Shown here: positions 36,417 through 39,833 of the stretch, piece after piece
How the letters are laid out: each line of letters starts with the position of its first letter
How positions within the stretch are numbered: position 1 is the first letter of the stretch
NCBI GenBank assembly: GCA_018693855.1
Contig: JABHMO010000043.1
Span: 72,154 to 136,153, forward strand
Length of the DNA: 64,000 nucleotides
Direction of reading: 5' to 3'
Origin: Candidatus Falkowbacteria bacterium
GTDB lineage: Bacteria; Patescibacteriota; Patescibacteriia; UBA11705; JABHMO01
The notes under the pieces: generated by a model
Told to the model about the DNA's origin: nothing
Database searches by the model: none
What the model saw: only the letters and a program-made list of their open reading frames with translations
Translations under genes and position numbers: made by a program

Positions 36417-36535
36417 ATACTAATCCACGAATGCATGCGAATGATACGAATGCTTCGCTATACTAATTTACGAACTACGCGAATAATTGAGTTCGTGGTG
36501 CGATTATTGGTATCGCGATTAGTATCATTAGTATT
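36417..36535. repeat. Copy 3 (more diverged) of the roughly 160-bp palindromic intergenic element
   Basis: It reads ATACTAATCCACGAATGCATGCGAATGATACGAATGCTTCGCTATACTAATTTACGAACTACGCGAATA… and fills the spacer between nrdG and the small ORF. Confidence 0.7.
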
Positions 36536-36551
36536 ATTTGTATATTAGTAT

Positions 36552-37244
36552 TTAAACCCCACGAAGTTCGCAAAGCTCGAACCAATCTTTTATTTCTTCT
36601 ATTATACCATCTAATTCTTTTTTTGTGTATGGACGAGTTTGACTATGTTTTGGATCGACTAGTTTTTCAGCTGGCATGAACTGCTGAATGAAGTATTTTT
36701 TTGCTCCTTTGATCTGTTGTGCCATCTCGATAATGTCTGATCTAGGATGAAGTGGTGGTAGCACAGTTGATCGAAACTCGTGTTCAACTGTTGATTCTTT
36801 TATCAGTTCAAAACTCCTTTTAATCTTTTCAACATCAATCTCACGATCAACAACTTGATTATATTTTTTCCAAGGTGCTTTTATATCCATAGCTATGTAA
36901 TCAAGCAAGTCGTCTTTAATTAAAAGCTCTATAACTTCTGGTTTTAATCCATTAGTGTCTAGTTTAACTAAAAAATTTTGATCCTTAACTTTTTTAATAA
37001 ACTCATAAAGATCTGGCTGCAAAGTCGGTTCTCCACCAGTAATACAAACCCCATCAATCAACTTCTTCCGTTCATTTAGAAACTCAAAAAACAACGACTC
37101 ATCAATCAAATCAGCGCTGCAGTTAACTAATTCCGGATTATGACAAAACGGACAGTTTAAATTACAACCAACCGTAAAAATGGTCGCTGCGACTTTACCT
37201 GGAAAATCCAGTAAAGTAGTTCGTTGTAGTCCACCGATTTTCAT
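36552..37244 (-). CDS. nrdG: Anaerobic ribonucleoside-triphosphate reductase activating protein (radical SAM)
   Basis: It has the CNLNCPFCHN radical-SAM cluster near the N terminus, is about 230 aa, and sits immediately downstream of nrdD. Confidence 0.85.
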   Translation of the reverse strand: MKIGGLQRTTLLDFPGKVAATIFTVGCNLNCPFCHNPELVNCSADLIDESLFFEFLNERKKLIDGVCITGGEPTLQPDLYEFIKKVKDQNFLVKLDTNGLKPEVIELLIKDDLLDYIAMDIKAPWKKYNQVVDREIDVEKIKRSFELIKESTVEHEFRSTVLPPLHPRSDIIEMAQQIKGAKKYFIQQFMPAEKLVDPKHSQTRPYTKKELDGIIEEIKDWFELCELRGV

Positions 37245-37431
37245 AGAAGATTTAAATTACTTGTACCTTTATATGTTCATCTTATCTTGATGAGTTGAGC
37301 AAGTCAAATATTTTAAATTAGCCTCATTGATAGCCTCATATAGCCCCATTAGTATTAAAAAAGCCTAAAGCAATGAGTCTTAAATTTTTAGATACTAAAA
37401 ACTTAGGACTTAAAACTTTAGGCAGAAGCAC

Positions 37432-37578
37432 CTATTCTTTTGTAGCGCAAACTTTATAGTTAGTTCTATCATCAAATTCTGCCTTTTTTCCATTGTTCCA
37501 TCTGTTGATAGGACTTAGATAACCAACGACTCTAGAATAAACCTCGCATTTTGTTCTTTCTAATTTTTGTGAAGCCAT
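37432..37578 (-). CDS. Separate 48-aa ORF encoding the NrdD glycyl-radical motif (C-terminal NrdD fragment)
   Basis: My own translation gives MASQKLERTKCEVYSRVVGYLSPINRWNNGKKAEFDDRTNYKVCATKE. The YSRVVGYL…WNNGKKAEF stretch matches the class III RNR glycyl-radical consensus (E. coli …YSRVTGYLG…WNDGKRAEF). It is absent from the ORF track because it is shorter than 60 aa. Confidence 0.6.
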   Translation of the reverse strand: MASQKLERTKCEVYSRVVGYLSPINRWNNGKKAEFDDRTNYKVCATKE

Positions 37579-37664
37579 AGTAAATAGAAATTGGAAATTA
37601 GAAATTTGAAATCAGGGTAGTCAATCAGACAAATCCTTATTTCAGTTTCATTTCCTATTTATTT

Positions 37665-39833
37665 TTATTTTTGAATTGGACTCTCAGGTTGAACAACTGG
37701 GGCAGGGGCTGCTTCTTGTGTTTGAATAGGGCTTTCAGGTTGAACTACTGGGGTAGGAACTTCCTCTAATTTTTGAGTTGGAGCTTCGACTTGATAGTTT
37801 TGTCCTTCGAAATAACCTTTTTCTTGATCACAGTAAGGACAGTATTCGTGCTCACCAGCAATATAACCATGGACTGGGCAAACACTGAAAGTTGGAGTTA
37901 AAGTAAAGTATGGTAATTTGAAATTCTCAGCAATTTTTCTAACTAATGCCTTTGTACTTTCAACTGAAGGCAACTTTTCACCAACAAACCCGTGCAAAAC
38001 TGTTCCACCTGTATATTTTGTTTGCAGGTCATCTTGCAGCTTAAGTGCTTCAAAAATATCATCAGTATGTCCAACTGGTAGATGTGATGAATTTGTATAG
38101 TATGGATCAGCACCTTGAGTTTTAACAGCTGTTTCATTAGCCGCGATAATCTCTGGATATTTTTCTTTATCAAGTTTTGCGAATCGGTATGATGTTCCCT
38201 CAGCAGGAGTTGCTTCTAGATTAAACAGTTCATTTGTTTCATTCTGATAATCCATCATCCTCTCTCTCATGAAATCAAGAACCTGACCAGCGAACCGGTG
38301 TCCTTCTTCTGTTGTTATATCAACTTTTAATAAATTGATAATCGCTTCATTTAAACCATTTAAACCGATTGTATTGAAATGATTTTTCCAATAAGTACCA
38401 AATCGTTCTTTTATTGCAGACAGATAATGTCTTGAATATGGATAAAGTCCTCCATCAATGAATTTTTCTAGAATTGTTCTCTTAATCATCAAACTTTCCT
38501 TACCAAGATCCATCAATTCTGACAATTGAGTAAAGAACTCTTCCTTCGTATTGGCAGCATATCCAATTCGAGGTAAATTAATCGTTACTACCCCAATACT
38601 TCCTGTTAATGGATTCGCACCAAACAGTCCACCACCTCGTTTTCGAAGTTCTCTATTATCAAGACGCAGACGACAACACATACTTCTTGCATCGTCTGGA
38701 CTCATATCACTGTTAATAAAGTTTGAAAAATAAGGAATACCGTACTTGGCAGTCATATCCATAATCTGCTCAATAATTGGCGCGTCCCAGTCCCAATCAC
38801 TTGTTACATTATAAGTTGGGATAGGCCAACTCAGAACTCTTCCTCGTTGATCACCTTCAAGCATTACCTCAATAAACGCTTTGTTAAACATATCCATCTC
38901 AACCTGGAACTCACCATAAGTCTCTTTCTGAGGTTTCCCTGATATAATAACTGCTTCATTTGCTAATGTTGATGGAGAAAATAGGTCTAAAGTTACATTT
39001 GTAAACGGTGTCTGGAACCCAACTCGAGTTGGTACGTTCATATTAAACAAAAATGTCTGAACTTTCTGTTTGACTTCTTCATAAGTTAATCCATCGTATC
39101 GAATAAAAGGTGCCAGTAATGTATCTAAACTAGCCACAGCTTGAGCTCCAGCAGCTTCACCTTGCAGAGTATAAAAGAAATTAACTAACTGACTCAAAGC
39201 ACTTCCAAAATGTTTCGCTGGTTTACTCTCAACTTTGCCACGAACACCGCCGAAACCACGGACCAAAAGGTCCTGAAGATCCCAACCGCAACAGTATGGA
39301 CTTAGAAGTTGCAAATCGTGAATATGTAAATCGCCAGAAACATGAGCGTTTTTAATATTTTCTGGATAGACTTTGTTCAACCAATAGTTAGCACTAATAG
39401 TTGAAGCAACGTAGTTATTCAGCCCTTGTAGAGAGTAGTCCATGTTTGAGTTTTCTTTTACTTTCCAATCAAGTTGTTTCAGGTATCCTTCCATTAGTTC
39501 ATCAGAATTAACCATTGACTCAATGTCTCTCATCTTTGATCTCTGATCACGATAAATTATGTAAGATTTAGCTACTTTGATCAGTTTCTGTTCAATTAAA
39601 ATCTCTTCTACGATATCTTGAATCTCCTCAACCGCAGGGATTGATCGTTCATGAAATTTCTTATTAATCCTTTCAACTACTAAATCAGCAACAGCTTCAG
39701 CTTTCTCCTGGTTTGGTTCACCAACAGCTCGCATTGCATTAAAAACAGCGCTATTTATATTATCTTGATCAAAATCAACAATTTTATTGTTTCTTTTCAC
39801 GATTTGGATAATCTGATTGCCTTGATAAACCAT
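37665..39833 (-). CDS. nrdD: Anaerobic ribonucleoside-triphosphate reductase (class III), main body, with an N-terminal ATP-cone
   Basis: It has an ATP-cone at the N terminus, the class III RNR core, and a Cys-rich Zn-ribbon region (CPVHGYIAGEHEYCPYC). It then ends in a Pro-rich repeated tail (PVVQPESPIQ x2) without a glycyl-radical motif. Confidence 0.9.
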   Translation of the reverse strand: MVYQGNQIIQIVKRNNKIVDFDQDNINSAVFNAMRAVGEPNQEKAEAVADLVVERINKKFHERSIPAVEEIQDIVEEILIEQKLIKVAKSYIIYRDQRSKMRDIESMVNSDELMEGYLKQLDWKVKENSNMDYSLQGLNNYVASTISANYWLNKVYPENIKNAHVSGDLHIHDLQLLSPYCCGWDLQDLLVRGFGGVRGKVESKPAKHFGSALSQLVNFFYTLQGEAAGAQAVASLDTLLAPFIRYDGLTYEEVKQKVQTFLFNMNVPTRVGFQTPFTNVTLDLFSPSTLANEAVIISGKPQKETYGEFQVEMDMFNKAFIEVMLEGDQRGRVLSWPIPTYNVTSDWDWDAPIIEQIMDMTAKYGIPYFSNFINSDMSPDDARSMCCRLRLDNRELRKRGGGLFGANPLTGSIGVVTINLPRIGYAANTKEEFFTQLSELMDLGKESLMIKRTILEKFIDGGLYPYSRHYLSAIKERFGTYWKNHFNTIGLNGLNEAIINLLKVDITTEEGHRFAGQVLDFMRERMMDYQNETNELFNLEATPAEGTSYRFAKLDKEKYPEIIAANETAVKTQGADPYYTNSSHLPVGHTDDIFEALKLQDDLQTKYTGGTVLHGFVGEKLPSVESTKALVRKIAENFKLPYFTLTPTFSVCPVHGYIAGEHEYCPYCDQEKGYFEGQNYQVEAPTQKLEEVPTPVVQPESPIQTQEAAPAPVVQPESPIQK

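What the first reader, a model, noticed from the sequence alone, without database searches (positions are those of the whole stretch)
37432..39833. The NrdD glycyl-radical domain is encoded as a separate 48-codon ORF downstream of the nrdD body
The main nrdD ORF ends after its Zn-ribbon in a Pro-rich tandem repeat (…PVVQPESPIQ… twice) and a stop, with no glycyl-radical motif. An 86-bp spacer follows. Then an ATG opens a 48-aa ORF, MASQKLERTKCEVYSRVVGYLSPINRWNNGKKAEFDDRTNYKVCATKE, carrying the canonical class III RNR glycyl-radical consensus (RVxGY…W.DGK.AEF). I checked that stop codons separate the two ORFs in the relevant frames, so a single frameshift error cannot fuse them. The spacer is too short for an intron. 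Two interpretations remain: a naturally split class III RNR with a stand-alone radical subunit, analogous to the GrcA/YfiD spare-part idea, or a recently disrupted gene.
Basis: seen in the sequence. Interest (0 to 1): 0.7.

Follow-up and report, generated by a model that had tools for sequence, protein, structure and literature searches.

The report
Two-piece anaerobic ribonucleotide reductase
The oxygen-sensitive enzyme that makes DNA building blocks is here naturally built from two proteins, with the roughly 48-residue loop that carries its radical encoded as a separate small gene; the same arrangement is conserved in many bacteria and archaea, phages carry the small gene alone, and I found no paper describing it.

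Summary
On the minus strand a 722-aa NrdD body (ATP-cone, catalytic barrel, Zn ribbon) ends in a Pro-rich tandem repeat. An 86-nt spacer follows, then a 48-aa ORF carrying the glycyl-radical loop, then nrdG. This is not an artefact or a decaying gene. The region is base-identical in three other assemblies, and several stops block every frame. 119 of the 120 nearest NrdD clusters also lack the loop. About 50 of 80 related genomic loci are split at the same point (Patescibacteria, DPANN archaea, Campylobacterota, Desulfuromusa, Synergistales). These include the complete genome of the cultured Caminibacter pacificus. The small ORF has its own ATG and is under purifying selection. In lineages that use Shine-Dalgarno sites it has one and is often translationally coupled. 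In some lineages nrdG or thyX lies between it and the body. At least 150 distinct 50%-identity families of stand-alone peptides exist. In phage contigs, 76 of the 80 best loci carry the small gene with no NrdD body or NrdG within 10 kb. Best reading: a two-subunit class III RNR with a trans-acting, replaceable radical subunit, functionally like GrcA/YfiD but not homologous to it. No report was found, and a 2026 review credits spare-part proteins to formate-lyases only.

The parts
37665..39833 (-). nrdD body (722 aa): ATP-cone, 10-stranded barrel with SMCCR finger-loop motif, Zn ribbon, disordered tail; no glycyl-radical loop
   Evidence: Pfam ATP-cone (res 9-99) + NRDD 1-531/562; NF006126 1033 bits against a cut-off of 548; PDB relatives are NrdD of T. 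maritima, P. copri and T4
39537..39809 (-). ATP-cone (residues 9-99 of the body)
   Evidence: PF03477 E=7e-19
37830..37880 (-). Zn-ribbon ligands C652-x2-H655 ... C665-x2-C668, followed by the conserved D-E-E-x-G-Y motif of split-type bodies
   Evidence: aligns to the T. maritima NrdD Zn ribbon 584-612; C652, H655, C665, C668, E671, G673 invariant in 54 sequences
37667..37776 (-). 51-nt tandem repeat (2.2 copies) encoding the Pro-rich C-terminal tail; tail length and sequence are not conserved among relatives
37579..37664 (-). 86-nt intercistronic spacer containing an imperfect hairpin; sequence not conserved among relatives; no Shine-Dalgarno sequence, promoter or terminator consensus found
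37432..37578 (-). Small gene (48 aa) for the radical-bearing subunit: K-C-E-V-Y-S-R-V-V-G19-Y loop plus C-tail; Gly19 codon at 37522-37524
36552..37244 (-). nrdG, radical-SAM activase (NrdG2 type, 230 aa)
   Evidence: TIGR02495 209 bits against a cut-off of 131

Best explanation
This locus encodes a naturally two-subunit class III (anaerobic) ribonucleotide reductase. The 722-aa body supplies the ATP-cone, the catalytic barrel with its cysteine finger loop, and the Zn ribbon. A separately translated 48-aa peptide supplies the buried loop whose Gly19 is converted to the glycyl radical by the adjacent radical-SAM activase NrdG. The peptide inserts non-covalently into the barrel, and the radical then shuttles to the finger-loop cysteine as in fused NrdD. 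What is shown: the gene split, its conservation, independent translation signals, purifying selection, and autonomy of the small gene. What is inferred: complex formation, activation of the peptide by NrdG, and the benefit. My proposed benefit is that the oxygen-labile part becomes a cheap, exchangeable module. O2 cleaves glycyl-radical proteins at the radical glycine, so only about 50 residues need to be remade. The free peptide is also directly accessible to the activase. Phages exploit this by carrying the small gene alone.
For: 1. Not an error. The region 37420-37700 is 100% identical in three independent metagenome assemblies, and the 48-aa protein is on 18 contigs. Multiple stops lie in all frames.
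2. The split is fixed in the lineage. 119 of the 120 closest NrdD clusters (67-88% identity) end after the Zn ribbon without RVxGY.
3. The split is widespread. About 50 of 80 GTDB loci are split at the same point, in Patescibacteria, DPANN archaea, Campylobacterota, Desulfuromusa and Synergistales. Well-supported split clades are interleaved with fused clades in the tree.
4. An isolate has it. In Caminibacter pacificus CP027432.2 the order is a 698-aa body, a 55-aa ORF (WP_123353108.1), then nrdG, tightly packed.
5. The peptide is translated independently. Every peptide start assigned in the split loci is an ATG. A Shine-Dalgarno-like site precedes it in 10/11 DPANN and 14/14 Campylobacterota loci, with spacers of -32 to +44 nt apart from one 224-nt case (L068), including overlapping stop/start.
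6. Purifying selection acts on the peptide: pN 0.17 against pS 0.81, median dN/dS 0.11 over the 43 of 153 pairs with unsaturated synonymous sites.
7. Gene order varies. It is body-nrdG-peptide in Synergistales and body-thyX-peptide in Caldisericaceae.
8. The family is large. All 217 retrieved short clusters carry the motif. In an exhaustive search of 1.84 billion representatives, the best 150 hits are all 48-93 aa.
9. Trans action is implied. 76 of the 80 best viral loci carry an orphan peptide gene among tail-fibre, endolysin and RecE/RecT genes, with no NrdD body or NrdG within 10 kb.
10. It is structurally plausible. The cut maps to the 3-residue linker between the Zn ribbon (T. maritima residue 612) and the Gly621 loop. 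The glycyl-radical domain is a mobile module that must leave the barrel for activation (PMC4493059; PMC11226230).
Against: There is no direct evidence here that the peptide is expressed, binds the body, or is activated. AlphaFold2 on a body+peptide chimera gave a good barrel but pLDDT below 50 for residues 672-770, so docking was not modelled. In the window itself the small ORF has no Shine-Dalgarno sequence, and a hairpin precedes it. The adaptive rationale (cheap repair, exchangeability) is inferred by analogy. The split could instead be selectively neutral. The complete phage genomes were not scanned, so a distant NrdD body on the same phage cannot be excluded for the long contigs.
Confidence: 0.85

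Rival explanations
1. The split is real and functional but selectively neutral. A stop and a restart arose in a flexible linker and were tolerated because the loop binds the barrel tightly. There is no repair or exchange advantage.
For: The cut lies in a short surface linker. Body tails and spacers are highly variable and look unconstrained. Fused and split forms are interleaved in the tree.
Against: Orphan copies in phages, relocation behind nrdG or thyX, several different cut geometries and an invariant Cys at -4 found only variably in fused forms all point to a module used in trans, not a frozen accident.
Confidence: 0.3
2. Recently disrupted gene (pseudogene in decay).
For: No glycyl loop on the main ORF; a low-complexity repeat at its end.
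Against: The same split is found in hundreds of lineages down to 45% identity. The peptide shows dN/dS of about 0.1. The body is intact and conserved, with all catalytic motifs. The split is present in an isolate genome.
Confidence: 0.01
3. Sequencing or assembly artefact in this window.
For: None beyond the unusual arrangement.
Against: The DNA is identical in three other assemblies. Five stops lie in the connecting frame. The arrangement is conserved in relatives.
Confidence: 0.005
4. The two ORFs are joined at expression, by ribosomal bypass or frameshift, by an intron, or by protein trans-splicing, to give a normal fused NrdD.
For: In the window the body ends CAA AAA TAA and the peptide begins ATG GCT TCA CAA AAA, a possible take-off/landing match.
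Against: The codon match is not conserved in relatives. Spacers range from -32 to +743 nt, with overlapping ORFs or whole genes in between. The small ORF has its own Shine-Dalgarno sequence and ATG. Tails of 6-46 aa and N-extensions of 8-25 aa are far too short for split-intein halves. Spacer sequence is not conserved.
Confidence: 0.02
5. The small protein is only a spare part for a different, fused NrdD elsewhere in the genome, and the truncated body is inactive.
For: This is the GrcA/YfiD precedent. Orphan copies exist in phages.
Against: The body is strongly conserved and always syntenic with the peptide and nrdG. Small CPR and DPANN genomes are unlikely to keep a 2.1-kb dead gene.
Confidence: 0.03

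Closest known systems
GrcA/YfiD of E. coli and Y06I of phage T4 (autonomous glycyl radical cofactors for pyruvate formate-lyase)
   Same: A small stand-alone protein carries the glycyl-radical loop of a glycyl-radical enzyme and works in trans with a large catalytic partner and that partner's activase. There is a phage-encoded version. The logic is replacement of the O2-cleaved part (PMC8683613; PMC13450708).
   Different: GrcA is a PFL-type domain of 127 aa that backs up a full-length PFL. Here the peptide is NrdD-type: only PF13597/NrdD models hit it. It is about 48 aa, and the partner lacks the loop altogether, so it is an obligatory subunit. The 2026 review states that spare-part proteins are known only for formate-lyases.
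Canonical single-chain NrdD (T. maritima 4COI/4U3E, P. copri 8P23, phage T4 1H78)
   Same: The same family, motifs (ATP-cone, SMCCR finger loop, Zn ribbon, RVVGY loop) and nrdG partner.
   Different: In those enzymes the Zn ribbon, Gly loop and C-tail are one C-terminal domain of the same chain. Here the chain is cut between the Zn ribbon and the Gly loop.
Split class II RNR NrdJa/NrdJb (Pseudomonas aeruginosa)
   Same: An RNR catalytic polypeptide divided into two genes at the C-terminal region (PMC9669993).
   Different: It belongs to a different class, with an AdoCbl cofactor. The second piece is a large IscU-like/Zn-finger domain for re-reduction, not the radical-bearing element.
Genes-in-pieces nrdA of Aeromonas phage Aeh1 and interrupted phage nrdD genes
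   Same: RNR genes are split and remain functional (Aeh1 from my own knowledge; the phage survey is PMC3653736).
   Different: Those splits are caused by inserted homing endonucleases or introns in single phages, in the middle of the gene. This one is a clean, conserved cut in cellular lineages with no mobile element in the spacer.
Small subunits of other glycyl-radical enzymes (benzylsuccinate synthase beta/gamma, HPAD gamma)
   Same: Multisubunit glycyl-radical enzymes with small partner proteins (my own knowledge; PMC13450708).
   Different: Those small subunits do not carry the radical glycine.

Membership tests
Class III ribonucleotide reductase (NrdD) | Sequence match to curated NrdD models above the cut-off | tested here: met
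   Body: NF006126 1033 bits (cut-off 548), TIGR02487 522 bits (cut-off 326), Pfam NRDD E=5e-181
Class III ribonucleotide reductase (NrdD) | Finger-loop cysteine(s) and C-terminal Zn-binding site | tested here: met
   S384-M-C386-C387-R and C652/H655/C665/C668 are invariant in 54 aligned sequences; the Zn ribbon aligns to that of T. maritima NrdD
Class III ribonucleotide reductase (NrdD) | Glycyl-radical motif RVxGY on the same polypeptide, C-terminal to the Zn site | tested here: not met
   It is absent from the 722-aa ORF and present on the separate 48-aa ORF, which covers profile positions 531-562/562
Class III ribonucleotide reductase (NrdD) | Adjacent radical-SAM activase NrdG | tested here: met
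   TIGR02495 NrdG2 209 bits (cut-off 131) at 37244..36552; syntenic in relatives
Class III ribonucleotide reductase (NrdD) | Glycyl radical formation and NTP reduction | not testable with these tools
   Needs anaerobic biochemistry and EPR
GrcA/YfiD autonomous glycyl radical cofactor | Small stand-alone protein carrying a glycyl-radical-enzyme loop | tested here: met
   48 aa with an invariant S-R-V-V-G-Y; 217 of 217 stand-alone homologues carry the motif
GrcA/YfiD autonomous glycyl radical cofactor | Homology to the PFL-type glycyl radical domain / GrcA family models | tested here: not met
   Pfam and NCBIfam scans of the peptide return only NrdD models; the PDB profile search returns only NrdD chains
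GrcA/YfiD autonomous glycyl radical cofactor | Backs up a full-length partner enzyme that has its own loop | tested here: not met
   The partner body lacks the loop in the window and in 119 of 120 nearest clusters. Whether the phage orphans rescue fused host enzymes is unknown.
GrcA/YfiD autonomous glycyl radical cofactor | Radical installed on the free small protein by the partner's activase; restores activity after O2 cleavage | not testable with these tools
   Inference only
Split intein / protein trans-splicing | N-intein (about 100 aa) at the end of the first ORF and C-intein (about 35 aa, ending HN, followed by C/S/T) at the start of the second | tested here: not met
   Tails are 6-46 aa, unconserved and low-complexity; peptide N-extensions are 8-25 aa
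Programmed translational bypass (T4 gene 60 type) | Conserved matched take-off and landing codons, and a coding gap of fixed size with a conserved structure | tested here: not met
   The codon match occurs in the window only. Gap size varies from -32 to +743 nt, and other genes are sometimes inserted.

The most novel reading that the evidence does not exclude
The roughly 50-residue peptide is a free, exchangeable protein 'radical cofactor'. NrdG activates it off the enzyme. It then plugs into the NrdD barrel, possibly clamped through its invariant Cys next to the body's Zn ribbon, and is swapped out after oxygen damage. Phages carry their own copies to take over or boost host deoxynucleotide synthesis. 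That would be the first spare-part or auxiliary radical subunit for a ribonucleotide reductase, and the smallest known glycyl-radical protein.
Probability: 0.45. Interest if true: 0.85.

Novelty: new variant of a known kind. Interest (0 to 1): 0.74.

Why it matters
Glycyl-radical enzymes are thought to carry their radical on the catalytic chain. The only known exception in trans is GrcA/YfiD for pyruvate formate-lyase, and reviewers have openly asked whether other such enzymes have spare parts. This finding bears on that question in several ways.
- An essential enzyme of DNA precursor synthesis has its radical loop as a separate mini-protein in whole lineages: CPR bacteria, DPANN archaea, vent Campylobacterota and others. 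Phages carry that mini-protein alone.
- It gives a minimal, natural substrate for studying how NrdG activates its target.
- It gives a testable model for repair after oxygen damage in organisms living at oxic-anoxic interfaces.
- It identifies a new kind of phage auxiliary gene.
- It corrects annotation. The truncated bodies look complete, and the small ORFs are often labelled hypothetical or missed, which also biases RNR phylogenies that filter on the glycyl motif.
- A cultured organism with a complete genome, Caminibacter pacificus, makes it directly testable.

Tried and rejected
1. AlphaFold2 of a body+peptide chimera without an alignment gave mean pLDDT 35, which is useless.
3. The accepted alignment (chimera + 1 fused + 52 split bodies) modelled the barrel, but residues 672-770 had pLDDT below 50. 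Docking, and the idea that peptide Cys11 sits near the Zn site, could therefore not be examined.
4. In a sandbox test, MAFFT misplaced 49 of 50 short peptides when they were mixed with full-length bodies, so a block alignment was not possible.
5. An Rfam scan of the roughly 870-nt insertion in the L056 small gene found no group I intron model. 'Intron' remains a guess based on the LAGLIDADG ORF and the frame logic.
6. My dN/dS figure for the body's C-terminus is probably out of register and is not used.
7. The promoter/terminator scan found nothing in the spacer.
8. The bypass, intein, intron, pseudogene and artefact readings were considered and rejected (see the rival explanations).
9. A single-protein body query found nothing in viral contigs; the alignment query did.
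10. The neighbour-joining tree has weak deep nodes, so the number of independent split events could not be fixed.
Full report
**What is in the window**

On the minus strand the ORF 39833..37665 encodes a 722-aa protein. It has an ATP-cone (residues 9-99) and an NrdD catalytic domain. That domain matches Pfam NRDD over profile positions 1-531 of 562, and the NCBIfam equivalog NF006126 over positions 3-655 of 684 at 1033 bits against a cut-off of 548. The protein ends with a Zn ribbon (C652-P-V-H655 ... C665-P-Y-C668). After that comes a low-complexity tail encoded by a 51-nt tandem repeat of 2.2 copies at 37667-37776. An 86-nt spacer follows, and then an ATG opens a 48-aa ORF (37578..37432). 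This ORF matches exactly the missing end of the models: Pfam positions 531-562 and NF006126 positions 649-683. It contains K-C-E-V-Y-S-R-V-V-G19-Y-L-S-P-I-N-R-W-N-N-G-K-K-A-E-F. The NrdG2-type activase gene follows at 37244..36552.

In the peptide's frame, five stops separate the two ORFs. The body's frame has two stops and the third frame has several. One refinement applies. The glycyl-radical domain as structural papers define it comprises the Zn site, the buried Gly loop and a C-terminal tail (PMC11226230). Here the Zn site stays on the body, and only the loop plus tail is separate. By alignment, the cut falls between residue 612 (end of the Zn ribbon) and residue 616 (start of YMRIVG621Y) of the solved T. 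maritima NrdD.

**It is not an artefact and not decay**

The 48-aa protein occurs on 18 contigs. The stretch 37420-37700 is base-for-base identical in three assemblies from other samples, each with the same 722-aa body, spacer and nrdG.

- Of the 120 closest NrdD protein clusters (67-88% identity), 119 end shortly after the Zn ribbon with no RVxGY motif.
- Of 80 related loci from GTDB species genomes, about 50 are split at the same point and about 20 are fused. The rest are truncated by contig ends.
- Split loci come from the Falkowbacteria/Kuenenbacteria part of Patescibacteria, DPANN archaea, Campylobacterota (Nautiliaceae, Sulfurospirillum, Sulfurovum), Desulfuromusa and Synergistales.
- In a neighbour-joining tree of the bodies, the split forms make well-supported clades (Campylobacterota 100%, core Patescibacteria 100%). 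These are interleaved with fused clades. Deep nodes are weak, so the number of origins is open.
- The arrangement is present in a cultured organism with a finished genome, Caminibacter pacificus CP027432.2. There a 698-aa body is followed after a 2-nt gap by a 55-aa ORF (RefSeq WP_123353108.1), which overlaps nrdG by 7 nt.

**The small ORF is a gene of its own**

- Every peptide start I assigned in the split loci is an ATG.
- A Shine-Dalgarno-like site precedes it in 10 of 11 DPANN loci and 14 of 14 Campylobacterota loci. Spacers there run from -32 to +44 nt, apart from one 224-nt case (L068). Many have overlapping stop and start, which is the signature of translational coupling.
- Among 18 Patescibacteria relatives, synonymous sites are saturated (pS 0.81) while pN is 0.17. 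The median dN/dS is 0.11 over the 43 of 153 pairs with unsaturated synonymous sites.
- Gene order varies. In Synergistales, including a 2.95-Mb contig, the order is body, nrdG, peptide. In Caldisericaceae it is body, thyX-like gene, peptide.
- Body tails (6-46 aa) and spacers are not conserved.

These facts rule out ribosomal bypass, an intron, or trans-splicing as ways of re-joining the two parts. The CAA-AAA match between the end of the body and the start of the peptide occurs only in the window.

**Size of the family**

All 217 short clusters I retrieved carry [ST]-R-[VI]-x-G-Y. An exhaustive HMMER search of 1.84 billion 50%-identity representatives gave 5,233 hits at E ≤ 0.001. The best 150 are all 48-93 aa long.

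The cysteine four residues before the S/T-R is invariant in the stand-alone peptides (217 of 217). In fused relatives it is Cys or Thr. The only exception found is Desulfuromusa. There the body ends C-P-H-H and the peptide begins M-A-T-K-C-D-G-K-T-E-V-Y-S-R, as if the last Zn ligand had moved onto the peptide.

Other cut geometries also exist. Some peptides start M-(A)-K-C-G-R-K-C-E-V-Y-S-R. One 84-aa protein contains the whole Zn ribbon plus the loop and has no nrdD upstream. A metal-mediated clamp between the subunits is a tempting idea, but I could not test it.

**Phages**

Searching viral contigs with the peptide profile found at least 577 encoding stretches. Of the best 80 loci, 76 carry a short stand-alone ORF. 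These amount to 62 distinct peptides of 36-103 aa. None of the 76 has an NrdD body or NrdG within 10 kb on either side, in 1.14 Mb examined. Their neighbours are tail-fibre, endolysin, RecE/RecT, HNH and peptidase genes. Two contigs carry two different copies. Some viral peptides share the GYLSP/GFLSP signature of the Falkowbacteria and Synergistales enzymes.

A phage gene for the loop alone makes sense only if the peptide works in trans with a host body and host activase. This is the strongest indirect support for the exchangeable-subunit reading. It parallels T4 Y06I, the phage homologue of YfiD.

**Mechanism proposed**

- Shown: two genes, co-conserved with nrdG, with the small one autonomous and constrained.
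- Inferred: the peptide is activated by NrdG, and its loop inserts into the barrel next to the SMCCR finger loop. Catalysis then proceeds as in fused NrdD.
- Two known facts make this plausible. The Gly residue is buried and the C-terminal domain must swing out for activation (PMC4493059). The domain is highly mobile in cryo-EM and HDX studies (PMC11226230).
- The likely benefit is cheap replacement of the part that oxygen destroys, together with easy access for the activase. A neutral origin cannot be excluded.

AlphaFold2 could not settle the docking. The barrel was modelled confidently, but the tail and peptide were not.

**Comparison with what is known**

The enzyme is a class III RNR in all tested respects except that the radical motif sits on a second chain. 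The small protein works like GrcA/YfiD but is not a member of that family, because it hits only NrdD models. It is also obligatory rather than a back-up.

Split RNRs are known for class II (NrdJa/b) and for phage genes interrupted by mobile elements. Full-text searches found no description of a split NrdD or of an RNR-type autonomous radical peptide. [quoted passage not shown] A 2021 paper speculates that others might exist. Annotation pipelines do label some of the small ORFs 'anaerobic ribonucleoside-triphosphate reductase', so the databases have seen them even though the literature, as far as I could search it, has not.

**Verdict**

This is a real, conserved feature that appears not to have been described. 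It is a new variant of a known enzyme kind, with a functional analogy to the PFL spare-part system and an unexpected phage dimension. Confidence that it is a natural two-subunit enzyme is about 0.85. Confidence in the exchange-and-repair rationale is about 0.45.

Noticed in passing
Viral loci L253-L328 (also L093-L172): 76 of the 80 best viral-contig matches are orphan NrdD-type glycyl-radical peptide genes (62 distinct, 36-103 aa). They sit among tail-fibre, endolysin and RecE/RecT genes, with no NrdD body or NrdG within 10 kb. Two contigs carry two copies each.
   Followed up: partly
L056:6713-7795 (Caldisericaceae) and L052:2946-3053: The small glycyl-radical gene is itself interrupted exactly after the radical Gly (...SRVVG*). 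The interruption is about 870 nt and holds a LAGLIDADG-type ORF in another frame, and the rest of the peptide resumes in the original frame. This is probably a group I intron, but no Rfam hit was found. The gene order here is body, thyX-like gene, peptide.
   Followed up: partly
L024:3986-6930 and L091:2233-5153 (Synergistales type): The gene order is nrdD body, nrdG, small peptide gene, so the activase lies between the two halves.
   Followed up: yes
L058, L075, L077, L079 bodies; proteins P0136, P0141, P0155, P0195: NrdD bodies of about 1,000-1,050 aa carry an insertion of about 330 aa, and P0195 has a LAGLIDADG_3 Pfam hit. These are probably inteins inside split-type NrdD bodies.
   Followed up: no
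window:37579-37664 and the equivalent spacers of 24 Patescibacteria loci: The spacers are unrelated in sequence, yet 15 of 25 fold into hairpins far more stable than shuffled controls (mean z -2.8). The L002 spacer is about 15 tandem copies of a 19-nt unit. The role is unknown (mRNA processing, stability or attenuation?), and no control on other intergenic regions was run.
   Followed up: partly
All stand-alone peptides; window 37546-37548 (Cys11 codon): The Cys four residues before S/T-R is invariant in 217 of 217 cellular stand-alone peptides, but is Cys or Thr in fused NrdDs, and is Cys in 49 of 62 phage orphans. It may be an inter-subunit metal or disulfide contact with the body's Zn ribbon.
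   Followed up: partly
L040, L041 (Desulfuromusa type); P0078/P0087/P0094; P0093 = L087:337-591; L286, L314, L327: Other cut positions exist. In one, the body ends CPHH and the peptide starts MATKCDGK. Some peptides start M(A)KCGRKCEVYSR. Proteins of 84-103 aa contain the whole Zn ribbon plus the Gly loop, and the cellular example has no nrdD body upstream.
   Followed up: partly
L300 (= L144):3211-6419, viral contig: The small peptide ORF lies immediately upstream of an NrdD body that is itself interrupted by about 1 kb between residues 230 and 222. This reverses the usual gene order.
   Followed up: no
window:35924-36074 and 36434-36533: A repeated palindromic intergenic element flanks the 90-aa ORF downstream of nrdG. 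It has 41-nt arms that are 88% complementary, and a second 54-nt copy at 87% identity lies 486 nt away. It is REP-like or terminator-like.
   Followed up: no
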